This document shows, piece by piece, positions 3,434 to 60,053 of a stretch of 64,000 nucleotides of DNA; positions within the stretch are counted from its first letter, which is position 1; every line of letters begins with the position of its first letter. Both the position numbers and the translations under genes were made by a program. This DNA comes from a virus. The notes under the pieces are model-generated. The model had not been told where the DNA came from. It did no database searches and saw only the letters and a list, made by a program, of their open reading frames with translations. Where the stretch lies: positions 32,001-96,000 of the IMG/VR virus record IMGVR_UViG_3300011113_000649. One strand, 5' to 3'.

Positions 3434-3462
3434 ATTATAACGTTCCCGTGGTGTGGCGTCAA
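3434..3462 (-). promoter_or_regulatory. sigma70-type promoter for ssb
   Basis: TTGACG-17 nt-TATAAT. Confidence 0.8.
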
Positions 3463-5078
3463 GTTCGTGCGACGTATGCTTTTTCTACCACAAAACTATC
3501 TTTGGTCCTCGACCTAGTTCCACACACAATAATAACATTTCCTGAGAACAATATAGATTTATATTTTTTATAAACCTCTGGAAAGAATATGACAGAATCC
3601 ACGGACCCTGTACCATCAGACATTGTGACAAAGCTCATTTCCTCGCCAGGAGTTTTTCCATTTTTTGTTTTAATTGCATTTATAAAGTCTATTTCACCAC
3701 CCATTATTAAGTTATTTGTATTAATACCATTCTTAAAATCTCTACAAGTAGTATTGGTCATGCTAATATCATACATATCAACTTTAGAACAAGTGATTGA
3801 ACATCCTAAATTAGAGTCCTCTACATCCGCAATCCACTCTGGATTATCATCCAAAGAATATGGAGGATTTTGTAACATAGTTATTGCATCGCTAATAATT
3901 TTTTTTCTGTTTTTATTACTTTTACCATTTATAAATAAATCATCTAAAGCTGTCTTAAGTGATGTATAGTTTTGAATATTCTCTATAATATATGCTGATT
4001 CTTTTTTTGTCAACATTGATATTATTTCATATTCAAATAACATACAAGTTCTGGTTTTATGTACAAAAGATACCGCACCACTTTCTATTAATGCTTTAGC
4101 TGCAGTTGAATTAATATTAATTAAAATCTTAAATAATATTTCTAACCACGATAATTCTAAAAGAGATTGATTTAATTCTAAAACAATTTTTTGCAGTTTA
4201 GTAAAAACAGAAGAGCCTACTCCCTTAATGTCTGTTAATCCGAAATAAATATCGTTATTTTTTAAAATAAAAAATTCATTCATTATTCTCAGATCTGGAG
4301 TTTTGATATTAACATCCATTTCGTTGGCGTTTTGCACCAAGGCTTTAATCTCTTCATGAGGATCAATTTTATCTTTTGCAAATCTTAGATATGAAGCAAA
4401 AAATACTTTGGGGAAGTGAGCCTTAGCATATGCCGATAAGTAAGCATTAATAGCATAGCTTACACTATGAGACTTATTAAATGAATATCTTTGGCTCTTC
4501 TCAATCCAGCCGAAAATTTGTTCGGCCTCGGACTGATTAACAATTTGTGTTTTTGTTACGCCTTCTAAAAATTTAGTCCTGATTTTTGCCATTTCTTCTG
4601 GTTTTTTCTTACCAATAGCCTTACGCAACATATCGGCTTCTTGTAAATTGAACCCAGCTATGTTCTTAGCAATTTCCATTGCTTGTTCTTGATATATCAT
4701 TTCACCATATGTGGTTTTTAGAATAGGTTCTAAGGCTGGATGAAAATAGTCTAAAGATTCTTCCCCATTCTTTTTATCTATATAATGATTTGTAACGCTT
4801 TTTCCATTACGAATCGCCTCTAGCGTACCCGGCCTTAGAATAGCAATCAGAGCGGACAACTGCTCTATATTTTCTGGTTTAAGTTTTTTAGCTATTGATC
4901 TACCTAGTCTAGATTCTAGCTGAAATATTCCTTTAGTATTACCATCACCAATAAGATTCCAGGTTCTAGAACAATCTAGATTTATTTTTTCTATAGATGG
5001 ATCAAAGCTAATACTCTTACCGTGATCGTCTACCAAATCAAAACAACAACCACAACTATAACTAAATTTTTTACTCAT
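3459..5078 (-). CDS. dnaE: DNA polymerase III alpha, C-terminal half (fingers, HhH, OB)
   Basis: GIFQLES, RPG, YQEQAM, ADMLRKAIGKK, YSFNKSH, IKGVG, OB fold; likely start ATG 5078. Confidence 0.92.
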   Translation of the reverse strand: MSKKFSYSCGCCFDLVDDHGKSISFDPSIEKINLDCSRTWNLIGDGNTKGIFQLESRLGRSIAKKLKPENIEQLSALIAILRPGTLEAIRNGKSVTNHYIDKKNGEESLDYFHPALEPILKTTYGEMIYQEQAMEIAKNIAGFNLQEADMLRKAIGKKKPEEMAKIRTKFLEGVTKTQIVNQSEAEQIFGWIEKSQRYSFNKSHSVSYAINAYLSAYAKAHFPKVFFASYLRFAKDKIDPHEEIKALVQNANEMDVNIKTPDLRIMNEFFILKNNDIYFGLTDIKGVGSSVFTKLQKIVLELNQSLLELSWLEILFKILININSTAAKALIESGAVSFVHKTRTCMLFEYEIISMLTKKESAYIIENIQNYTSLKTALDDLFINGKSNKNRKKIISDAITMLQNPPYSLDDNPEWIADVEDSNLGCSITCSKVDMYDISMTNTTCRDFKNGINTNNLIMGGEIDFINAIKTKNGKTPGEEMSFVTMSDGTGSVDSVIFFPEVYKKYKSILFSGNVIIVCGTRSRTKDSFVVEKAYVART

Positions 5079-5760
5079 TAAACGAATTCTTAAACTTAAC
5101 CTTTGAAGCAATATTTCTATGTAGTTTCATAAACCTGATCATAATTTCTGCGGTATCTTTGACGTCTTTAATAGCGTCATGAGCACCCTTTTTATCTATG
5201 CCAAAATATTCTCGTAAAGAATCCAGAGTATAACTTTTCAAGTCGGGATTGTGCTCAAACCAATAAAAAATTATATTCATTACGTCTATAACATCTCTAG
5301 GATAAAAAATATCAGATGTATTTTCTTTATTAGTATTACCATATTTTTGACTTAATCTATCTATAATTTTAAGATCAAATCTATTAATATTATATCCAGC
5401 AGCTATTGGTGCGCTAAATTGACTCTTCTTGGAAGATCTTGAATGATATTTATCTAGATAATTAATAAACATATTCCAAGACTGTTGCTGCTTGGGGTAG
5501 TTTTTCCATTCATTCAAAACATCGTCTTTAGAACAGCCTTTGACCTTTGAATGAAAATCTAAAATATCTGTAGTATATACATAATCATTATTTTGTTCCA
5601 AAACTTCTGGCTTAAAATTAATATTAAACTCTGAATTCGGTATAATTTCTAGTTTAATTGGATCAATAATTACGGCCGCAATTTGTACAGGACTACAGGC
5701 TTTAGGATCCGAGCCATCGGTTTCAAAATCAAAAACACAAATTTTGTTATAATTAATCAT
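5071..5760 (-). CDS. DEDDh 3'-5' exonuclease (DnaQ-like)
   Basis: DFETDG (ExoI), YNINRFD (ExoII), HDAIKD (ExoIII). Confidence 0.88.
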   Translation of the reverse strand: MINYNKICVFDFETDGSDPKACSPVQIAAVIIDPIKLEIIPNSEFNINFKPEVLEQNNDYVYTTDILDFHSKVKGCSKDDVLNEWKNYPKQQQSWNMFINYLDKYHSRSSKKSQFSAPIAAGYNINRFDLKIIDRLSQKYGNTNKENTSDIFYPRDVIDVMNIIFYWFEHNPDLKSYTLDSLREYFGIDKKGAHDAIKDVKDTAEIMIRFMKLHRNIASKVKFKNSFNE

Positions 5761-5935
5761 TAACTTGTACTACCGTGAGTGGCTTTACTTGAATAGCTTC
5801 TGTAGACTGCGAAGCGTTCACCGCGTTTAAAACTTTGCAGCAACTAATTCTTTTATCTTGAATCTTAATATATTCTGTTCCATTTAAAGTAAATTTATCG
5901 TTTACCTTTAATTCTTTAAATTCAATTTCTTTCAT
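5753..5935 (-). CDS. Small hypothetical protein
   Basis: 60 aa, AGGAG RBS, lies between dnaE-N and exonuclease. Confidence 0.6.
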   Translation of the reverse strand: MKEIEFKELKVNDKFTLNGTEYIKIQDKRISCCKVLNAVNASQSTEAIQVKPLTVVQVND

Positions 5936-5936
5936 A

Positions 5937-7805
5937 CTAGACTCCTTGTTGTAATAAAAATCTAATGGTCATAATTTTATCTAACATCGCAACACCTAAA
6001 ATATCAAACTTAATAATTCCTATGCTTTCTAGATCTTGCATTTCCATGCCAGCAATCAGTTGTTTATTTTTGCTATCGTAAACCATAGGACAAATTTCGT
6101 TTAATGGTTCAGAACTTATAGCGATTCCAGCCGCGTGTTTTGATTGATTTGATTTAGTTCCCTCTAGCCGTATCGCTTGTTCAAATCTTTTTGCTAGTGG
6201 TCCTTGTAGTTCTCCACTTTCATCAATATAGCACCACTCTTTGAGTTTGTCAACATTGTTTTCTAGTGACCAGCGAATGATAGAAGATTCGCCAGTTTCT
6301 TCTTTCATTTCTTGAAGTTCATCGGCTATTTTAGCTTCGTCAGGTATGTTTTTAGTAATTCTATTCATTTCCTCAAAGCTAACATTACCATATACTCTTA
6401 AAACGTCTTTTAGCGCCCCGCGTCCCTTAATGGTATTAAAAGTAATCATTTGAGAAACTTTATCATACCCATACTTATTTTTAATATATTCAATGATAAC
6501 TTCTCTCTTATCTATGGGAACGTCAACATCAATATCTGGCATACTAATATGATCTTCTGAATTACGTCCAGCATTATAAAATCTATCGAACAATAAATTA
6601 TATCTTATTGGATCAATACTAGTAATCCCAATTAAGTAAGAAACCAGACAACCAGCAGCAGAGCCTCGACCGGGTCCAGGTAACCAATTATTTTTTCTTA
6701 CAAAGTTCACTATGTCTTGTACAATTAGAAAATAACTCGACAGTCCAGCACCCTGTAAAACATCTAGTTCATATTTAATTCTATCTAAATATTCTTGTTG
6801 ATTATTTTTATCTATTACTGGATTAATTTTATCTCTCCAGCCTATTCTGCATAGTTCCCTGAGATATTCATCTGGATTCATATTTTTAGGACATTGAAAC
6901 GGTGGCAATTTAGGCTTATTTAGAATATTATAGTGTTCCACCAAATCCGCCACATAATTTGTATTTTCAATTTCTTGTGATGTATGAATTTCTTTCATTT
7001 CCTCTTGAGAAGGAATATGATAATTTTCTGAAGTAAAAAAGCAAGACAACGGCGTTTCTTCGTCATTACTAATTTTTCTACTAATTTCTGGAAATGTTGT
7101 TTTTAGGTTATTGCAAAGCAAAATCCTTTGATCTATTGCGTCCTCTTTTTTACAATAGTGAGCATCTGGAGTGCAAATAACTTTTGTATTAGTTTCTTGA
7201 GCTATTTTTCTGACAGCATTTGTTAAAAGTTCTTGAACTGGTAAATTTTGTTTATCTATCAGTTGAGCCTCTAAAAATACTTTGTCTTGAAAAATTTGCT
7301 TCAAATATTCAATATGTTTTTTACCAGATTCTAACCAGTTCTCTTTTAACTGATATGATTCTAAGATTTGGTCGGATAGAGTAGAGCCTAGATGTCCAGT
7401 AATAGCAATCAAATTTCCGCTATTTATTTTGGCTATAGCTTCTAGATTAAGTCTAGGTTTATGATAATAATGCTCTGGTTTGTTAGATTCAGAAACTATC
7501 TTAATAAGATCAAGCCAACCAGCATGATTTTGTGCAAGAATGATAAAATGAGCTAACGACCTATTATCTTTATCTTGAATGGCTGGGTCTTTTTCGCAAA
7601 TATATAATTCACAACCCAGGATCGGTTTAATACCAGCCTCTTTCATAGCGCTATAGAATTTAACAGATCCGGCAATATTGCCATGATCTGTCAATGCGCA
7701 TGATGATGCCCCTATCTCTTTGCATCTGGCGGCAATTTGTTCTGGTTGACTTAATCCGTCCAATAACGAAAAATGTGAATGTACATGCAGAGGAATATAG
7801 TTCAT
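5937..7805 (-). CDS. dnaE: DNA polymerase III alpha, N-terminal half (PHP, palm, thumb)
   Basis: HVHSHFSLLDG, TDHG, DAHY, GPGRGSAAG, MPDIDVD, KHAAG, KFDILG. Confidence 0.95.
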   Translation of the reverse strand: MNYIPLHVHSHFSLLDGLSQPEQIAARCKEIGASSCALTDHGNIAGSVKFYSAMKEAGIKPILGCELYICEKDPAIQDKDNRSLAHFIILAQNHAGWLDLIKIVSESNKPEHYYHKPRLNLEAIAKINSGNLIAITGHLGSTLSDQILESYQLKENWLESGKKHIEYLKQIFQDKVFLEAQLIDKQNLPVQELLTNAVRKIAQETNTKVICTPDAHYCKKEDAIDQRILLCNNLKTTFPEISRKISNDEETPLSCFFTSENYHIPSQEEMKEIHTSQEIENTNYVADLVEHYNILNKPKLPPFQCPKNMNPDEYLRELCRIGWRDKINPVIDKNNQQEYLDRIKYELDVLQGAGLSSYFLIVQDIVNFVRKNNWLPGPGRGSAAGCLVSYLIGITSIDPIRYNLLFDRFYNAGRNSEDHISMPDIDVDVPIDKREVIIEYIKNKYGYDKVSQMITFNTIKGRGALKDVLRVYGNVSFEEMNRITKNIPDEAKIADELQEMKEETGESSIIRWSLENNVDKLKEWCYIDESGELQGPLAKRFEQAIRLEGTKSNQSKHAAGIAISSEPLNEICPMVYDSKNKQLIAGMEMQDLESIGIIKFDILGVAMLDKIMTIRFLLQQGV

Positions 7806-51805: not shown

Positions 51806-51845
51806 TATATTTCCTTAAGGCTTGTTTCAATATCTACTAATTAAA

Positions 51846-51918
51846 TAAGAGCGGCGGGATTCGAACCCGCACTTGCGACATTTTAAGTGTCGTGTCTCTG
51901 CCGTTGGACTACGCTCTC
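51846..51918 (-). tRNA. tRNA-Leu(UAA), short variable loop, no encoded CCA
   Basis: GAGAGCG...CGACA CT-TAA-AA TGTCG CAAGT GCGGG TTCGAAT CCCGC CGCTCTT A. Confidence 0.9.
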
Positions 51919-51922
51919 ATAA

Positions 51923-53038: not shown

Positions 53039-53659
53039 TTATTTATCAGATTTTTTAAGATTATCTATAGCCCATAGTGGTTGCAAATTACTATAATGAA
53101 AACATTTTTTCTGTTCTTCTATTTTTGTTAGATCAAAACTAGCACAAGGCTTTATATGGTCTATATGCCATTTTCCATAGTTATCCCAATTCATACCATC
53201 GACAAAAAGATTCTCTAAATATAGTTTTAGATAGTCCCAAGAACAACCAGTTAAATCATATGATGTGCTATTTTTTGATCCTCGTATTAAAGCCATTCTA
53301 ATACGATTACTAATAATTGTTCTTAATCTAAATTGAATATTCTTTTTTCTTTTAAGTCTGCGTTGTTTATTAATTTTATCTCTGTATTTTTCTCTATATT
53401 TTTTAGCATTTATTGAAATTTTATCTGGATTATTTTTTCCCCACAGTTTTCTATGTTCATTAAGACAATCTCTATTTTTCTCACGATATGCCTTTTGTTG
53501 TTGCTTTATTTTCTTTTTATTCTTTTGCCTTCTAATCTGATTGTATACTTTATGACAAAGTTTACAGTATGGGGATTTTCCATCTTTTGATGCTTTTTGA
53601 CTATGGAAATGATCGATTTTTTGTTTTTTATTGCATTTTATACATTGTTTTATTTTCAT
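53039..53659 (-). CDS. HNH homing endonuclease
   Basis: N-terminal C..C/C..C, basic helix, WHIDHIKP...HYSNLQPLWA.DN.KK. Confidence 0.85.
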   Translation of the reverse strand: MKIKQCIKCNKKQKIDHFHSQKASKDGKSPYCKLCHKVYNQIRRQKNKKKIKQQQKAYREKNRDCLNEHRKLWGKNNPDKISINAKKYREKYRDKINKQRRLKRKKNIQFRLRTIISNRIRMALIRGSKNSTSYDLTGCSWDYLKLYLENLFVDGMNWDNYGKWHIDHIKPCASFDLTKIEEQKKCFHYSNLQPLWAIDNLKKSDK

Positions 53660-53699: not shown

Positions 53700-54413
53700 C
53701 TAATTTTCAAAAACGTATGACCAATACCTAGAATCTGTTTTATTTTGCTTGGCATCCCAAAATATGCACCTAGCAATATATGCAGGAACGCCTAGTTTAC
53801 CACAATTAACACTCCAGTGCCTTTCCATCTTTTTATATTGATCAAGACCTTTTTTTGATTGATATGTCAGTGTTTTCATACCATACAATTCCAACATATG
53901 AGTGTCTCCACAAAAAACTCTGCACTCATTAGGGTGACACTGTTCCAAAGCAAACGAAACTTTAGCGGTTCCTAGACCAGAGATATTATTAACAATCTGA
54001 TCTCTTTTCTTTACATGATACTTTTTACTGGTTAGATAAAATTGCTTAGGATCTTGCCAGAATTTATCCTTAAACTGCCAAATAAATTTTGTACGATTAT
54101 TATATAGTCCGCATCCACTATTCTTGATTTTTTCTCTAAGCAGTTCTTTATTGTCGATCCAATCATTGAAATCTTTGATAGCATTGTAGCCATTAACATT
54201 ACTTTTCCATGTTGTATGAACACTCATAAAACTAAACAAATATCGTCGGAAAATATCTTCCACATTTTGAGGACGAACACCCTCCCAGTATTCTTTATAT
54301 GCTACCACCTTATCTCGCGGAAAAGTAGCAAAAAAAGTATCGGCCTCGCTTTTGTCAAGAATAGTATTCTGAATAGGAATTACTGTGTTTTCAACAATCA
54401 TGGTAGTCTCCAA
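53700..54413 (-). CDS. HhH-type DNA glycosylase-like protein
   Basis: RDQIVNNISGLGTAKVSF...GDTHML, similar to OGG/HhH-GPD core. Confidence 0.55.
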   Translation of the reverse strand: METTMIVENTVIPIQNTILDKSEADTFFATFPRDKVVAYKEYWEGVRPQNVEDIFRRYLFSFMSVHTTWKSNVNGYNAIKDFNDWIDNKELLREKIKNSGCGLYNNRTKFIWQFKDKFWQDPKQFYLTSKKYHVKKRDQIVNNISGLGTAKVSFALEQCHPNECRVFCGDTHMLELYGMKTLTYQSKKGLDQYKKMERHWSVNCGKLGVPAYIARCIFWDAKQNKTDSRYWSYVFEN

Positions 54414-54529: not shown

Positions 54530-55168
54530 ATGAAAAAACAATGTAGTGAATGTGGTAAATATAAAATTGCTAATAATAAAAATTTCCATAAAAGCAAACA
54601 TCATAAATATGGACTTCATCCGTACTGTAAGGTATGTCAGAAATCTAAAGACAAAAAAAGATATAAAAAAAACGGCGATAAAATACGCAACAGAGTTAGA
54701 CAAAGAACTAAAGATTATCCAGAAAAATTAAAAGCAGAACGTAGGGCATATTATCGTAAAAATAAAAGTAAATTACTCAAACAATGTAAAGAATACGCTC
54801 AAAGACCAGAGAGAAAAAAAAGAATGAGAGAAATACATCAACATAGAATGGAAAATGATATTTTGTATAAATTAAGATTTGTGTTAAGATCAAGAATAAG
54901 TAAAGCGTTTAAAAGAAAAACTGAAAAAAGTAGAGATATTTTAGGTTGTTCTATTGAAGAAGTTCGTAAACATTTAGAAAACCAATTCACCGAAAAAATG
55001 TCCTGGGATAATCATGGAACTTATTGGGAAATAGACCATATAATACCTCTCGCATCTGCCACAGATCAAAAAACTCTTAGAAAATTATGTCACTATTCCA
55101 ATCTACAGCCTTTGGAGGCTAGTAAAAATAGAATAAAAGGTTCTAGATTAGATTGGACAAATATTTAA
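54530..55168 (+). CDS. HNH homing endonuclease (only convincing plus-strand gene)
   Basis: TAAGGAG RBS; WEIDHIIP...HYSNLQPL; paralog of 53039..53659. Confidence 0.88.
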   Translation: MKKQCSECGKYKIANNKNFHKSKHHKYGLHPYCKVCQKSKDKKRYKKNGDKIRNRVRQRTKDYPEKLKAERRAYYRKNKSKLLKQCKEYAQRPERKKRMREIHQHRMENDILYKLRFVLRSRISKAFKRKTEKSRDILGCSIEEVRKHLENQFTEKMSWDNHGTYWEIDHIIPLASATDQKTLRKLCHYSNLQPLEASKNRIKGSRLDWTNI

Positions 55169-56086
55169 TTAAGTATCTCTTTTTTCTCCATAAAGATATT
55201 TAAAGGTCGGAAAACGAAGACTTAGATTTCCGTCTTGGTTCTTCGTTTCTTCAAAATATTGTACCAAAATTTGCTTACCTAAAATCTTACAAGGATTACA
55301 ATAAAACTCTTGTCGTTGATCAATAGTAAAACCACTACCAACTCTAACAGTATGACCCTTATGCTTGATCATAACGCAACTTAGCATAGTTTCTTCATGC
55401 TCCTTGCCATTTAACACATACCTAAACGGCCCCATTTCTGTGTCTACTACTTCATATTCATCATCAAAAAACTTCTTCACCTTTAGCAAATCTTTGCTTC
55501 GCTTGCCCTTATATGGTTCATCTGCTCGTAGCATAACTCCTTCCCAAAAATTATCTGCTGCTTCTTTAACCCATTCTTGAAAATGTTCATCATTATGAAT
55601 CAACTCTTGCTCCAAGACAGTCAAGCATGGACACTCATTGGGTTGCATAATGGCACACAGATGAGCGTATCGAATAGAATATGGTCGATTGCTTTGTCCT
55701 TTTTTGCTGTAAAATTCATCAATAGTAATTATATCGAAAATCTTAAATGACGGATTAGGAATAGTATGATCCTTCTTGCGAAGTTCTTTCATAACTCCTT
55801 GAAAATCTTCATTACCATCTTCATCTACTAGACAAAGTTCTCCATCAAGAACTACGTTAGAAATACCAAGAGCTTTAATCCCATCCCTAACAATATTAAG
55901 AGTATCAAAAATTTTTCCTGTGCGGGAATAGAAGGTAGTATCGCCATTAGTATCAACAATACCAACACATCTACAATTGTGTTTGAGTATACCATTAGCA
56001 AAAAAATTAGCATTATCTGCAACTTCTAGTTCATATTTATATTTTGATTCAATTTTTTCTATTGACTTAATTTTAACAGTTTGCAT
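55169..56086 (-). CDS. Split-intein C-fragment (37 aa) fused to C-terminal part of ATP-dependent DNA ligase
   Basis: YELEVADNANFFANGILKHN/C; then CRC, YSRTGK, LDGEL, FDI, EGVMLR, KRS..LLKVK, VGSGF, LRFP. Confidence 0.92.
   Translation of the reverse strand: MQTVKIKSIEKIESKYKYELEVADNANFFANGILKHNCRCVGIVDTNGDTTFYSRTGKIFDTLNIVRDGIKALGISNVVLDGELCLVDEDGNEDFQGVMKELRKKDHTIPNPSFKIFDIITIDEFYSKKGQSNRPYSIRYAHLCAIMQPNECPCLTVLEQELIHNDEHFQEWVKEAADNFWEGVMLRADEPYKGKRSKDLLKVKKFFDDEYEVVDTEMGPFRYVLNGKEHEETMLSCVMIKHKGHTVRVGSGFTIDQRQEFYCNPCKILGKQILVQYFEETKNQDGNLSLRFPTFKYLYGEKRDT
55976..56086 (-). mobile_element. Split intein, C-fragment
   Basis: Blocks F/G ending HN, with Cys+1 at 55973-55975. Confidence 0.88.
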
Positions 56087-56961
56087 AATCTAGTCTCAAT
56101 TTTGTTAATATTTTTCTGTATGTCCGATGCCCATAATAGGTATACCTTGTAGCCAAAACTTTTCAAGTGGTTGACGCGAATTTTATCTTTTTTCCAAACA
56201 TCTTTGGCACATAATTCTCCTGCCCATGTTATGATTATATCATTTGGTTTATATTTTCTAGGATTGGCATGAAATGTATCTCCATAAATTTCGATAATAA
56301 TCTTTTTTTGTTCTATAATTATATCTGGTCGAGGATTATATATTTTTTTTAAGGCTTTGTTGTATCTATTAAACTGTATACCATCAATATTTTCACTTAT
56401 ATAGATTATATTGTATTTATCTAATATATTTTCTACTCTTTGGTGTGGTATAGATTTTTTACCATTATTTCTTCTATAGCTTGGCAAATCAACCGGATTT
56501 TCCACTCCATATTTTTTAATAAGTGTTTGTTTAGTTTTTTCTTTAACGCTTTCTAATTGAAAAACATTAGTAATTCCTTTACCATATTTTTGTTCTATGG
56601 TTTTCTGGGTTTGCTTAGATTGAAAATTATTCTTATAACCATAATTTCTTAAATTAGTTTCTATTCTTTTTTGTTTAGTATTCGGATTATTTGCTGCCTC
56701 TTTGAGGGTCTGTGTTTTAATGCCTAGCTCTTTGCATCTAGTAATTATATGCTTAGTTTTAATTTTAGCATTGTTTATCTCTAATTCTAGCTGATAGCAA
56801 GACTTGCCTAACTTAATTATATTATCTTTTAGGTATTTTTTAGTTAAAATTTTATTTCTATAATTAGTTATATATTGAACATAATTTTTACATTTCGCTT
56901 GATGCCCATATAATTGTTGCTTAGTCTTTAATCCGGCCTTATTGCAATATTGACATTTCAT
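56059..56961 (-). CDS. Free-standing Vsr-like (EDxHD-type) homing endonuclease
   Basis: YG...N repeats; RPDI...IIEIYGDTFHAN...KD..R...GYKVYLLW. Confidence 0.8.
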   Translation of the reverse strand: MKCQYCNKAGLKTKQQLYGHQAKCKNYVQYITNYRNKILTKKYLKDNIIKLGKSCYQLELEINNAKIKTKHIITRCKELGIKTQTLKEAANNPNTKQKRIETNLRNYGYKNNFQSKQTQKTIEQKYGKGITNVFQLESVKEKTKQTLIKKYGVENPVDLPSYRRNNGKKSIPHQRVENILDKYNIIYISENIDGIQFNRYNKALKKIYNPRPDIIIEQKKIIIEIYGDTFHANPRKYKPNDIIITWAGELCAKDVWKKDKIRVNHLKSFGYKVYLLWASDIQKNINKIETRLCKLLKLSQ

Positions 56962-57019
56962 TTAAAAATTTCCCTTCTGGTATTTAATACACAGATATCG
57001 AGAAAGTTGGATGGAAATT

Positions 57020-57838
57020 TCAATCAAAAAGAATTTCTTCACTTCCGTCCAGTTCATCTACGCGACGATAACACTTGAGTTTAGGAATATATACTGTGTC
57101 ATTACCAGTAATATTAAGAGTAATGCCATTTTCTAAAGTAATTTTATACCATTGTGTAGGCTTGGTTTCAGAAATATCATGAGCATTACTCATATGATTA
57201 ATAATTGGTTTATACTCAATTTGATTAGTTTTATGATTAAAAGACTTAATATTCCCATTAATCTTATGCTCCACAACATAGCCAATAGGCAATACAACAC
57301 CGGTATCAAACTCTACCAGAGTGTCATAATCTACACAGCCATCAATCTTTCTGCTAACATACCAACCGTCCTCCCAGTCTACAAGTTTAGGTTCATATTT
57401 ATCAGCAAGAGCAACACTGAATTCTGGAATATGATCTTTGATTGCTTTGTTAATAATCTTATCGCCAGCACGGGTTTTCAAATCCTTGTCGATAATACAA
57501 TGGATCAAATCCTCATGGTGCGGATAAGTGTCAACAAAAGAATTAACCGCACCAATAGCGTCGTGACCAGTAATCTTGCGACTCTTTAGATCATCAAGAA
57601 GATCAAAAATATTATCATATCTTATTCCACGAAGATGACTTTTCTTTTTCAAATTATCGCTTGTGACATTATATTGCCACATTGGATGATAAGTATACAG
57701 AAAAATATTCTTAGCAAAAGTTGCTGATGCTGTTTGGTGACAGCAATAGTCTACAATAATACCTTCTTTATCCTTAGTGCTGCTAGTAGCCCTAAGATCA
57801 CGAACCATTCCCCAAACATAATCAAAATCGTGAGTCAT
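57020..57838 (-). CDS. N-terminal part of ATP-dependent DNA ligase fused to split-intein N-fragment (105 aa)
   Basis: IIDKDL, FSVALA, YVSRKIDG then CVDYDTLV (block A) ...ITGND...RVDEL; ATG 57838 after AGGAG. Confidence 0.92.
   Translation of the reverse strand: MTHDFDYVWGMVRDLRATSSTKDKEGIIVDYCCHQTASATFAKNIFLYTYHPMWQYNVTSDNLKKKSHLRGIRYDNIFDLLDDLKSRKITGHDAIGAVNSFVDTYPHHEDLIHCIIDKDLKTRAGDKIINKAIKDHIPEFSVALADKYEPKLVDWEDGWYVSRKIDGCVDYDTLVEFDTGVVLPIGYVVEHKINGNIKSFNHKTNQIEYKPIINHMSNAHDISETKPTQWYKITLENGITLNITGNDTVYIPKLKCYRRVDELDGSEEILFD
57023..57337 (-). mobile_element. Split intein, N-fragment
   Basis: Cys1 directly after ligase KIDG; HINT-like pattern; acidic C-terminus. Confidence 0.85.
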
Positions 57839-57863: not shown

Positions 57864-57892
57864 AGTATAACACACTCCAAAGCGTCTGTCAA
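57864..57892 (-). promoter_or_regulatory. sigma70-type promoter for ligase
   Basis: TTGACA-17 nt-TATACT. Confidence 0.75.
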
Positions 57893-58982: not shown

Positions 58983-59336
58983 CTATTTTATTAGTTTTCT
59001 GTTTCTAACCAAGATTAGATAATTCAATGCTTTAACTACACCTTCCAAATTATCTCCTAATTTTCCTAACCCCTCATTACATTTACTACACAACCAACCC
59101 CTAAAACTATCGTCACTATGATTATGATCTAAACACCATTTGAAAGGAACTTTTCCACAACATTCGCATACTTCTGGTTTTGATGGAGCCTTTTTATGAA
59201 GTTTACTTCTTATCTTAGAATGTTTTTTGACGCATTTTCTACATCTACTATCTAGATTATCTTTATACATACTGTGCTTAGGAAAACTTTTGAAGTTTTT
59301 TCGTTCGTGACAGTATGCACAAATTTTTCTAGGCAT
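58983..59336 (-). CDS. Endonuclease VII-like protein
   Basis: CECCG...LDHNH....RGWLCSKCNEGLG.LGD. Confidence 0.88.
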   Translation of the reverse strand: MPRKICAYCHERKNFKSFPKHSMYKDNLDSRCRKCVKKHSKIRSKLHKKAPSKPEVCECCGKVPFKWCLDHNHSDDSFRGWLCSKCNEGLGKLGDNLEGVVKALNYLILVRNRKLIK

Positions 59337-59381: not shown

Positions 59382-59737
59382 TGGAGGCGAGGGAAATCGA
59401 ATCCCTGTCCTATCATATTTCAAATTATATATTCTACAAGTTTATTTTATTCATAAATTAAATAGGATTACAGAACAAACAAGATTAATTCCTATCTTAT
59501 CGACTTCTCTTAACCTGCAACCCGTCGAACATTGTAGGTGCAGAGGGATTTAACGACAGACTTTTGATCCCTACCCTCATTCGGTATCGCAGTCTGTTAC
59601 TGCCCTTTTTTGTCAGGCAGCAAGTGCTAACTGAGTTTCGCCAGTTAAAGCGTTTAATCGACTTTTAAAGTGGCCTGTCGATCAACCACTACTTGCTAAT
59701 ATAATCTTCTTTATGTAGTCGAAACCTTTACGCCCCC
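59382..59737 (-). ncRNA. ssrA: tmRNA, tag (A)GETQLALAA
   Basis: 5' GGGGGCG..TTCGAC; 3' AGGGA-TTCGATT-TCCCT-CGCCTCC-A with G3-U70 pair; tag ORF 59613..59642 after TTAACT. Confidence 0.92.
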
Positions 59738-59949: not shown

Positions 59950-59971
59950 AATATGAAAACCTCTGCGTTAA

Positions 59972-60045
59972 TAGGGTGTGTAGGAGTCGAACCTACCTTT
60001 TGAATACCTTATAAGAGTATTTGCAACAACCGGCTGCAACACCCC
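59972..60045 (-). tRNA. tRNA-Ile(UAU), atypical short D-loop
   Basis: GGGGTGT/ACACCCT acceptor; ATACT CT-TAT-AA GGTAT; GTAGG TTCGACT CCTAC. Confidence 0.8.
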
Positions 60046-60053
60046 ATTTTTAT

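What the first reader, a model, noticed from the sequence alone, without database searches (positions are those of the whole stretch)
55169..57838. DNA ligase fractured at its active site by a natural split intein, with a homing endonuclease between the halves
Seen: the N-gene ends ...YVSRKIDG|CVDYDTLV...(105 aa, acidic tail DELDGSEEILFD). The C-gene starts with a basic 37-aa segment ending ...FFANGILKHN|CRCVG and continues with ligase motifs III-VI. Joining gives KIDG-CR, the motif I KxDGxR carrying the adenylated lysine. A 300-aa Vsr-like endonuclease gene separates the two genes. Known: this split intein plus free-standing endonuclease layout (fractured genes) is described for phage gp41 helicase, IMPDH and RNR genes, and such inteins can be fast trans-splicing tools. 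Inference: active ligase requires protein trans-splicing. I cannot verify whether this ligase-site pair is already catalogued.
Basis: partly seen in the sequence, partly recalled or inferred. Interest (0 to 1): 0.9.

Follow-up and report, generated by a model that had tools for sequence, protein, structure and literature searches.

The report
Phage DNA ligase split by intein
An uncultured phage encodes its DNA ligase as two genes, cut three residues after the catalytic lysine by a mobile cassette (two intein halves around a DNA-cutting enzyme gene) that should stitch the protein back together. The layout, and DNA ligase as a host, were already described in 2009, so this is a clean new example rather than a new kind of thing.

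Summary
On the minus strand lie LigN-IntN (57020-57838), a 300-aa Vsr-like (EDxHD/DUF559) endonuclease gene (56059-56961) and IntC-LigC (55169-56086).

- **Exteins:** they join without a gap to give motif I, KIDG|CR, and a 435-aa ATP-dependent DNA ligase.
[quoted passage not shown] The best structural match is the N chain of the Npu DnaE split intein. The family profile hits the NrdJ-1 split intein at E=2e-18. IntC matches the C-terminal end of solved mini-inteins.
- **Mobility:** 76 of 80 related viral loci are empty alleles (KIDG|ARC). Four carry the same three-gene cassette, always with Ala changed to Cys at +1.
- **Selection:** all parts are under purifying selection (dN/dS 0.03-0.4).

The best reading is protein trans-splicing of a 'fractured gene'. 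It is not new in kind. Dassa et al. 2009 already list a DNA-ligase split-intein locus, and this scan has reported split inteins at the KxDG motif of ligase-like genes in other genomes.

This intein belongs to a large, almost entirely split family (451 clusters) that sits at motif I of DNA and RNA ligases. Its subgroup also has Asp in place of the nearly universal block B histidine.

The parts
57864..57892 (-). Sigma-70-like promoter (TTGACA, 17 nt, TATACT with TG) in front of LigN-IntN
   Evidence: 11 of 12 consensus matches. A TTGACA/TATACT- or TAGAAT-type site and the leader AACACAGGAGA are kept in all five split alleles. Function not tested.
57338..57838 (-). N-extein of the DNA ligase (167 aa), ending SRKIDG; K164 is the predicted adenylated lysine of motif I
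   Evidence: PHROG 114 positions 98-250, E=2e-24. 82-88% identical to the N-terminal part of hundreds of intact 435-437-aa ligases. Gapless alignment to the PK-3 ligase.
57023..57337 (-). IntN, the N-terminal half of the split intein (105 aa): Cys1, block B reads ITGND instead of TxxH, acidic tail
   Evidence: AF2 pLDDT 93.1. Foldseek top hit is the Npu DnaE split-intein N chain 4qfq_A, TM 0.74/0.77, and all best hits are inteins or related HINT-fold domains. The family profile hits NrdJ-1 intein 8ubs at E=2.2e-18. dN/dS 0.03-0.15.
56962..57019 (-). 58-nt spacer between the LigN-IntN stop and the endonuclease start, with the endonuclease's Shine-Dalgarno sequence and a small hairpin just upstream of it
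   Evidence: 82% mean identity among five alleles, with conserved TCCATC..TTTTCT and GTGTA..ATAC. The predicted fold is not better than shuffles (z=-0.4). Its role is unknown.
56059..56961 (-). Free-standing homing endonuclease gene (300 aa): N-terminal CxxC...HxxxC finger, DUF7487 repeats, C-terminal Vsr-like (EDxHD/DUF559) nuclease domain
   Evidence: Pfam DUF7487 and DUF559 over their cut-offs in 5 of 5 alleles. The profile aligns to E. coli Vsr 1vsr/1cw0 over residues 210-286, with weak E of about 0.6. D213, E224, D228, H231 and D259 are invariant. dN/dS 0.08-0.22. Single copy in the genome record.
55976..56086 (-). IntC, the C-terminal half of the split intein (37 aa), ending GILKHN; its first 28 nt overlap the endonuclease gene
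   Evidence: phmmer hits the extreme C-terminus of the Spl DnaX mini-intein 7cfv (E=1.2e-4) and of gp41-1 6qaz (E=0.02). Pfam Intein_splicing positions 121-155 of 155, E=1.7e-5. Nearly invariant in 18 protein clusters.
55169..55975 (-). C-extein of the DNA ligase (268 aa plus stop), starting CRCVGIVD (+1 Cys): rest of the adenylation domain and the OB domain
   Evidence: Pfam DNA_ligase_A_M positions 38-204 of 204 (E=4e-14) and DNA_ligase_OB_2 (E=3e-9). PHROG 114 positions 250-501, E=5e-52.

Best explanation
This is a 'fractured gene'. The phage's only detectable DNA ligase gene has been invaded, between Gly167 and the next residue of motif I (KxDG|xR), by a mini-intein. That intein has in turn been split by a free-standing Vsr-like (EDxHD) homing endonuclease gene. 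The three genes are probably transcribed together from the promoter-like site upstream of LigN. LigN-IntN (272 aa) and IntC-LigC (305 aa) are made as separate proteins. The acidic IntN and the slightly basic IntC associate and fold into one intein (HINT) domain. Class 1 splicing chemistry (Cys1, terminal Asn37 with the preceding His36, +1 Cys) then excises both halves and joins the exteins into a 435-aa ligase reading KIDGCR. The endonuclease would spread the cassette by cutting alleles that lack it. Shown here: the anatomy, the seamless extein join, the intein fold of IntN, the intein-type C-terminus of IntC, presence or absence among close alleles, and purifying selection on every part. Inferred: association, trans-splicing, endonuclease activity and co-transcription.
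For: (1) The extein halves meet at the same profile position of PHROG 114 and align without a gap to an intact ligase. (2) In 76 of 80 related IMG/VR loci the ligase is uninterrupted and reads KIDG|ARC. In the window and four other loci the same site holds IntN, the endonuclease gene and IntC in the same order. (3) Every filled allele has Cys at +1 where empty alleles have Ala, Val or Ile (GCT to TGT, two base changes). This holds in 5 of 5 loci and 18 of 18 C-half clusters. Cys1 is present in 144 of 144 family representatives, and His-Asn at the IntC end is invariant. These residues are needed for splicing, not merely for association. (4) IntN is an intein-fold domain: AF2 pLDDT 93.1, all best Foldseek hits are inteins or related HINT-fold domains with the Npu DnaE split-intein N chain on top, and the family profile hits NrdJ-1, DnaE, DnaB and DnaX inteins at E=2e-18 to 1e-4. 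(5) IntC matches the C-terminal end of solved mini-inteins. Contiguous mini-inteins of the same family, at the same KLDG|C...HN|CR site (P0186, P0191), link both halves in one chain. (6) With synonymous sites near saturation (dS 1-3), dN/dS is 0.03-0.15 for IntN, 0-0.42 for IntC, 0.08-0.22 for the endonuclease and 0.03-0.27 for the exteins. (7) No other ATP- or NAD-dependent ligase domain was found in the 105-kb record. (8) No intron-like RNA family was found in the region.
Against: Splicing was not observed. Block B reads TGND, so the histidine described as the single most conserved intein residue (PMC6333167) is Asp here. The block F positions that are usually Asp and His are Glu and Ala. 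The -1 residue is Gly, so the steric compensation described for histidine-less inteins does not apply. IntC has only a weak Shine-Dalgarno-like sequence and starts inside the endonuclease ORF. The endonuclease assignment rests on a Pfam match barely over its cut-off and on weak Vsr alignments, and its single-sequence AF2 model was uninformative (pLDDT 45). The genome record is only about 76% complete, so a second ligase cannot be excluded.
Confidence: 0.82

Rival explanations
1. Non-covalent clasp. The intein halves have lost efficient splicing because the block B histidine is Asp, and they only hold LigN and LigC together, so the ligase works as a two-chain enzyme.
For: Block B His is replaced by Asp in all alleles of this clade. 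The block F Asp and His positions are Glu and Ala. Purifying selection on IntN and IntC would also be expected for a clasp. The scan reports such a splicing-dead case in a phage polymerase of another genome (unchecked).
Against: Cys1, the terminal His-Asn and the +1 Cys are invariant. The +1 residue changes from Ala to Cys in every filled allele, which a clasp would not need. A 142-aa intein domain left three residues after the adenylated lysine would sit in the nucleotide pocket. Histidine-less inteins that still splice are documented (Tko CDC21-1 group, cited in PMC6333167). 32 of 144 family representatives carry Asp or Asn at this position, which points to a tolerated variant.
Confidence: 0.1
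2. Selfish cassette in a dispensable gene. The ligase is inactivated by the insertion, the host ligase supplies the function, and the ORFs survive only because the insertion is recent.
For: Some phages tolerate loss of their own ligase (general knowledge, not tested here). The record is incomplete.
Against: Split alleles differ from each other at saturated synonymous sites (dS 1-3) while dN/dS stays at 0.03-0.27 in both exteins and in IntN, so the split state is old and selected. About 20 N-half and 18 C-half protein clusters keep full-length open frames. The promoter and leader are conserved.
Confidence: 0.05
3. RNA-level joining. The interruption is an intron-like element, or the transcripts are trans-spliced, and the intein-like segments are incidental.
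For: None beyond the fact that a gene is interrupted by an endonuclease ORF, which is also typical of group I introns.
Against: No intron family in Rfam matched; there were only two chance-level hits at E of about 0.4-0.6. The flanking segments are in frame with the exteins, fold as an intein-type (HINT) domain and are conserved at the protein level.
Confidence: 0.01

Closest known systems
Fractured genes of Dassa, London, Stoddard, Schueler-Furman and Pietrokovski 2009 (PMC2677866): gp41-1, gp41-8, NrdJ-1, NrdA-2, IMPDH-1, DnaE, terminase and one DNA ligase locus from Lake Gatun
   Same: Same three-gene layout on one strand: host N part with IntN, a short spacer, a free-standing Vsr-like endonuclease gene, then IntC with the host C part. 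Same split point in the intein, at the usual endonuclease insertion region. Phage origin. The host is a DNA replication and repair enzyme, and DNA ligase is named among the hosts. NrdJ-1 is the best solved-structure match of this intein family.
   Different: Their ligase locus was a single incomplete assembly that was not analysed further. It was described as most similar to the phage Felix O1 ligase, with a 5'-3' exonuclease gene downstream. Here the downstream genes are an HNH endonuclease and an Ogg-like glycosylase. I could not compare sequences or insertion sites because the supplement is not held. The spacer here is 58 nt (53-58 in the other alleles) against 27-51 nt in the paper. Block B has Asp instead of His.
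NrdJ-1, gp41-1 and Npu DnaE naturally split inteins (solved structures 8ubs, 6qaz/6riz, 4qfq/4kl5)
   Same: Class 1 layout with Cys1, an IntN of about 100 aa and an IntC of about 36 aa, terminal His-Asn and a +1 nucleophile. IntN is acidic and IntC weakly basic. Same fold: TM 0.69-0.78 to these structures.
   Different: Low sequence identity (17-25% in the structural alignments). Block B is TGND, not TxxH. The block F Asp/His positions are Glu/Ala. The insertion site is motif I of a ligase. No splicing data exist.
I-Bth0305I, prototype of the EDxHD (Vsr-like) homing endonuclease family (Taylor et al. 2011, PMC3239194)
   Same: Multi-domain protein with a C-terminal Vsr-like nuclease domain. 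Invariant residues align with Vsr catalytic Asp51, His69 and Asp97, and there is a Glu at the Vsr Phe62 position.
   Different: I-Bth0305I sits in a group I intron of recA, whereas this one is free-standing inside a split intein. The N-terminal parts differ (Cys/His finger and DUF7487 repeats here). No direct sequence match to the I-Bth0305I structure appeared in the PDB search. Cleavage activity and target are unknown.
Tko CDC21-1 group of inteins that naturally lack the block B histidine (as cited in PMC6333167)
   Same: Natural inteins without the block B histidine that are still maintained in essential genes.
   Different: Those are contiguous archaeal inteins with a bulky Leu at -1 and a compensating residue elsewhere. 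Here the intein is split, -1 is Gly, and the replacement is Asp. It co-varies with Ile just before the block B Thr (32 of 32 against 14 of 111). No compensation mechanism is known.

Membership tests
Class 1 intein / HINT domain (split form) | Cys or Ser as first intein residue, directly after the N-extein | tested here: met
   Cys1 follows KIDG. Cys is present in 144 of 144 family representatives.
Class 1 intein / HINT domain (split form) | Block B TxxH motif | tested here: not met
   The Thr is present (144 of 144), but the His position is Asp in this clade. The family shows H 111, D 18, N 14, Q 1. Natural histidine-less inteins are known (PMC6333167), so this departs from the consensus without ruling out the fold.
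Class 1 intein / HINT domain (split form) | C-terminal His-Asn followed by a Cys, Ser or Thr at +1 | tested here: met
   ...GILKHN|CRC is invariant in 5 loci and 18 clusters. It aligns to the last residues of the DnaX and gp41-1 mini-inteins.
Class 1 intein / HINT domain (split form) | HINT fold | tested here: met
   For IntN: AF2 pLDDT 93.1, and the best Foldseek hits are all inteins or related HINT-fold domains; the profile hits solved inteins at E down to 2e-18. For IntC: sequence evidence only, plus contiguous relatives P0186 and P0191. The IntN+IntC complex could not be folded, because a fused sequence is not accepted by the tool.
Class 1 intein / HINT domain (split form) | Insert absent from homologous host proteins, and exteins join seamlessly | tested here: met
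   76 empty alleles, a gapless join, and PHROG 114 positions 98-250 and 250-501.
Class 1 intein / HINT domain (split form) | Protein (trans-)splicing activity | not testable with these tools
   Needs co-expression and detection of the 435-aa product.
Fractured gene arrangement (Dassa et al. 2009) | Host N part with IntN, a free-standing endonuclease gene, and IntC with the host C part, all on one strand at one locus | tested here: met
   The same layout is found in L002-L005. The spacer is 53-58 nt, slightly longer than the 27-51 nt given in the paper.
EDxHD / Vsr-like homing endonucleases | Vsr-like nuclease domain with the conserved acidic and His catalytic residues | tested here: met
   Pfam DUF559 scores 21.7 bits against a cut-off of 20.6, in 5 of 5 alleles. 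One allele also hits Pfam Vsr. The alignment to Vsr puts D213, E224, H231 and D259 on Vsr D51, F62, H69 and D97, and these residues are invariant. The E-values to the structures are weak (0.4-0.8).
EDxHD / Vsr-like homing endonucleases | Site-specific cleavage of the allele that lacks the element | not testable with these tools
   The target is unknown. The presence/absence pattern is consistent with homing.
EDxHD / Vsr-like homing endonucleases | Vsr-type fold of the C-terminal domain | tested here: inconclusive
   The single-sequence AF2 model has pLDDT 45.
ATP-dependent DNA ligase | Motif I KxDGxR with the adenylated lysine, an adenylation domain and an OB domain | tested here: met
   Motif I is reconstituted only after joining (KIDG|CR). 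Pfam DNA_ligase_A_M and DNA_ligase_OB_2 match the C half. PHROG 114 matches both halves.

The most novel reading that the evidence does not exclude
The window's intein is one member of a very large, almost entirely split intein family that has specialised on motif I (K-x-D/H/N/E-G) of DNA and RNA ligases in environmental phages. I found it described only as a single incomplete locus. About a fifth of the sampled family (32 of 144 aligned representatives), including this one, splices without the block B histidine (Asp or Asn instead) although -1 is Gly. That would imply a way of activating the N-terminal scissile bond that differs from both the canonical route and the known compensated ones.
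Probability: 0.3. Interest if true: 0.6.

Novelty: new member of a known kind. Interest (0 to 1): 0.4.

Why it matters
This is a complete, well-supported example of a split-intein 'fractured gene' in a near-complete phage genome. Empty and filled alleles are available for comparison. The host enzyme had been listed before only from one partial metagenomic locus and was never tested.

There is practical interest. Naturally split inteins from such loci (gp41-1, NrdJ-1, IMPDH-1) became the fastest protein-ligation tools. This one offers a short IntC, Gly at -1, Cys-Arg at +1/+2, and probably orthogonality to the existing set.

There is also mechanistic interest. The clade keeps all nucleophiles but has Asp where nearly all inteins have the block B histidine. 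It could therefore show how the first acyl shift is promoted without that residue.

Finally, the survey suggests that ligase motif I is a major hotspot for split inteins in phages, and this deserves a proper census.

Tried and rejected
- **Phage DNA search:** a distant blastn of the locus against 50,697 phage records found nothing. The phage has no close cultured relative.
- **IntN alone against PDB sequences:** no intein hit. A family profile was needed.
- **Endonuclease fold:** I should have supplied an alignment.
- **The look-up of encoding contigs:** I used IMG/VR loci instead, so N and C halves could be paired for only four other loci.
- **Contiguous-intein allele in this ligase clade:** none was found among longer proteins. 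Contiguous relatives exist only in more distant ligases.
- **Regulatory hairpin upstream of the endonuclease gene, as in Dassa et al.:** the spacer is conserved, but its predicted fold is no better than shuffled sequence, so I make no claim.
- **Intron or RNA explanation:** rejected.
- **Second ligase, second intein or second endonuclease copy in the genome record:** none.
- **Class 3 intein (Trp-Cys-Thr triad):** considered and rejected, because Cys1 is present and conserved.
- **Split DnaE polymerase in the same window:** I looked for a second split intein there. No intein-like ends were seen.
- **Direct comparison with the 2009 Lake Gatun ligase locus:** not possible, because the supplement is not held.
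Full report
**1. What is there**

The window is part of a 105,553-bp linear IMG/VR virus record. It has GC 34% and an estimated completeness of 76%. Other genes in the window include rIIA, ribonucleotide reductase, a DnaB-like helicase, a primase and a DnaE-type polymerase.

Three ORFs lie head to tail on the minus strand:
- 57020-57838, 272 aa
- 56059-56961, 300 aa
- 55169-56086, 305 aa

The ORF list shows the first one starting at a TTG at 57892. That TTG is the -35 hexamer of a TTGACA-17-TATACT promoter-like site.

The first protein is a 167-aa ligase N-terminal part ending SRKIDG, followed by 105 residues beginning CVDYDTLV and ending DELDGSEEILFD. The third protein begins with 37 residues ending GILKHN, followed by CRCVGIVD and 268 residues in all of ligase.

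**2. The two halves are one DNA ligase**

- Pfam finds DNA_ligase_A_M (profile positions 38-204 of 204) and the ligase OB domain in the C protein only.
- PHROG 114 (ATP-dependent DNA ligase) matches the N protein on profile positions 98-250 and the C protein on 250-501.
- The joined exteins (435 aa) align to the 438-aa ligase of Bacillus phage PK-3 at 36% identity. There is no gap at the junction: KIDG|CRCVGIVD against KLDGNRCVAIVD.
- The cut therefore lies inside motif I, KxDG|xR, three residues after the lysine that is adenylated in this enzyme family. That role for the lysine is established knowledge of nucleotidyltransferases.
- The x position after Gly varies among the intact alleles seen here (Ala, Val, Ile; Asn in PK-3), so Cys there should be tolerated. 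That last step is inference.

**3. The extra segments are the two halves of an intein**

IntC:
- It matches the last 32-35 residues of solved mini-inteins, ending exactly at their terminal His-Asn: Spl DnaX 7cfv at E=1.2e-4 and gp41-1 6qaz at E=0.02.
- It matches Pfam Intein_splicing positions 121-155 of 155.

IntN:
- Alone it gave no PDB hit.
- A full HMMER scan of 1.84 billion representative proteins found 451 clusters at E<=1e-3.
- A profile of 141 of these hits the NrdJ-1 split intein (8ubs) at E=2.2e-18, the Npu and Ssp DnaE inteins at 1e-11 to 1e-9, and the DnaB and DnaX inteins.
- With that alignment AlphaFold2 gives pLDDT 93.1 and pTM 0.78 for the window's IntN.
- The best Foldseek match in the PDB is the N chain of the natural Npu DnaE split intein (4qfq_A, TM 0.74/0.77). 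All the best hits are inteins or related HINT-fold domains (hedgehog and bacterial intein-like domains).

Two representatives, P0186 and P0191, carry a contiguous mini-intein of the same family at the same site (KLDG|C...NFFANGILVHN|CR). This ties IntN-like and IntC-like sequences into one domain.

**4. It behaves as a mobile element and is under selection**

*Presence and absence*
- In the large protein collection there are about 20 clusters of split N halves (271-287 aa, 73-98% identical) and 18 clusters of IntC-LigC (17 of them 305 aa).
- These sit among more than a thousand uninterrupted 435-437-aa ligases whose N part is 82-88% identical.
- Of the 80 best IMG/VR loci, 76 are empty and four (L002-L005) have the same three-gene cassette. 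In those four the spacer is 53-55 nt and the endonuclease gene overlaps IntC-LigC by 28-37 nt.
- Empty alleles read GGT|GCT AGA TGT (G|ARC). Filled alleles read ...GG(C/T/G)|TGT...AAT|TGT AG(A/G). Every filled allele has therefore acquired the +1 Cys.

*Selection (Nei-Gojobori estimates among the five alleles)*

| Part | dN/dS |
|---|---|
| IntN | 0.03-0.15 |
| Endonuclease | 0.08-0.22 |
| IntC | 0-0.42 |
| Exteins | 0.03-0.27 |

Synonymous divergence is mostly 1-3, so the split state is old and every part is maintained.

*Other checks*
- All five alleles keep a sigma-70-like promoter and the leader AACACAGGAGA in front of LigN.
- No intron-like RNA family was found.
- No second ATP- or NAD-dependent ligase, no second intein and no second copy of the endonuclease were found in the record.

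**5. The endonuclease**

- Pfam gives DUF7487 and DUF559 over their cut-offs in 5 of 5 alleles. One allele also touches the Vsr model.
- PHROGs gives homing-endonuclease families.
- A profile of the five alleles aligns residues 210-286 to E. coli Vsr (1vsr, 1cw0, 1odg) and to a DUF559 structure (3hrl), but weakly (E 0.4-0.8).
- In that alignment the invariant D213, E224, H231 and D259 fall on Vsr Asp51, Phe62, His69 and Asp97. That is the pattern described for the Vsr-like endonucleases of fractured genes and named the EDxHD family (PMC3239194).
- The N-terminus has an invariant CxxC...HxxxC finger.
- The fold could not be confirmed, and the target is unknown.

**6. How it most likely works**

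LigN-IntN and IntC-LigC are translated separately. The halves associate (IntN net charge -6, IntC +1) and splice by the class 1 route into a 435-aa ligase. The endonuclease propagates the cassette.

The main argument that real splicing is selected, rather than mere association, is the invariance of Cys1, His36-Asn37 and the +1 Cys, together with the Ala-to-Cys change in every filled allele. My confidence is about 0.82.

**7. What is unusual**

Block B reads ITGND. In the family the Thr is invariant, but the 'His' position is H in 111 representatives, D in 18, N in 14 and Q in 1. All 32 Asp or Asn members have Ile just before the Thr, against 14 of 111 His members.

The literature calls this histidine the single most conserved intein residue and says only a very small subset lacks it (PMC6333167). 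The block F positions that are usually Asp and His are Glu and Ala here. With Gly at -1, steric compensation is not available. This keeps a rival reading alive, a non-covalent clasp, at about 0.1.

A second point concerns the wider family. Of the 135 best representatives in which Cys1 could be placed, 131 have IntN at the extreme C-terminus, so they are split. 123 sit directly after K-x-(D/H/N/E)-G. The N-extein parts of the profile match both DNA ligases and the Naegleria RNA ligase, and they end exactly at KLDG. Ligase motif I is thus a major home of split inteins.

**8. Comparison with what is known**

The arrangement is the 'fractured gene' of Dassa et al. 2009. That paper names DNA ligase among its eight host enzymes, from one incomplete Lake Gatun locus. 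I could not compare sequences, because the supplement is not held.

I found no other paper on ligase split inteins in the library. Archaeal DNA ligases with contiguous inteins are mentioned in PMC4760082.

Earlier notes of this scan report the same kind of cassette at the KxDG motif of ligase-like genes in other genomes (unchecked). This agrees with my family survey.

Verdict: real, well supported, a new member of a known kind, with a non-canonical block B worth a bench test.

**9. Limits**

- All activity statements are inferred.
- One observation is unexplained. DNA identity among the four full cassettes peaks at 0.89-0.93 over the 3' part of IntC, downstream of the endonuclease stop, and dS there is only 0.1-0.5.

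Noticed in passing
window 3459-7805, minus strand: The DnaE-type (Pol III alpha, PHP domain) polymerase is also in two ORFs: 5937-7805 matches PHROG 405 positions 42-611, and 3459-5111 matches positions 613-1055. A 60-aa ORF and a DnaQ-like 3'-5' exonuclease gene (5071-5760) lie between them. I saw no intein-like ends at the break.
   Followed up: partly
window 55976-56050 (3' part of IntC): DNA identity among four full cassettes peaks here at 0.89-0.93, and dS is 0.1-0.5 against 1-3 elsewhere. The stretch lies after the endonuclease stop, so ORF overlap does not explain it. Possible causes are a DNA-level constraint, a co-conversion tract or an endonuclease-related site.
   Followed up: partly
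window 53039-53659 (-), 54530-55168 (+), 58983-59336 (-): Three more free-standing endonuclease genes flank the ligase locus: two paralogous HNH / 'endonuclease VII' PHROG 1035 genes, and a Pfam Endonuclease_7 gene. The region is dense in selfish nuclease genes.
   Followed up: no
window 59382-59737 (-): ARAGORN predicts a phage-encoded tmRNA with tag peptide GETQLALAA. Nearby are tRNA-Ile(UAU) at 59971-60046 and tRNA-Leu(UAA) at 51845-51919.
   Followed up: no
protein P0247: This 386-aa protein carries a contiguous intein of this family, followed immediately after its HN|C junction by a second IntN-like segment that runs to the C-terminus. That looks like two adjacent inteins, the second one split.
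   Followed up: no
window 53700-54413 (-): A 237-aa Ogg-HhH (8-oxoguanine glycosylase-like) gene lies downstream of the ligase. It is conserved at the same place in L002 and L005.
   Followed up: no
window 56962-57019 (-): The spacer before the endonuclease gene is 82% conserved among alleles and contains TTTTCTCGATA. This resembles the YCGAT element that other first-stage notes place in this genome's promoters. No clear -35/-10 pair was seen.
   Followed up: partly
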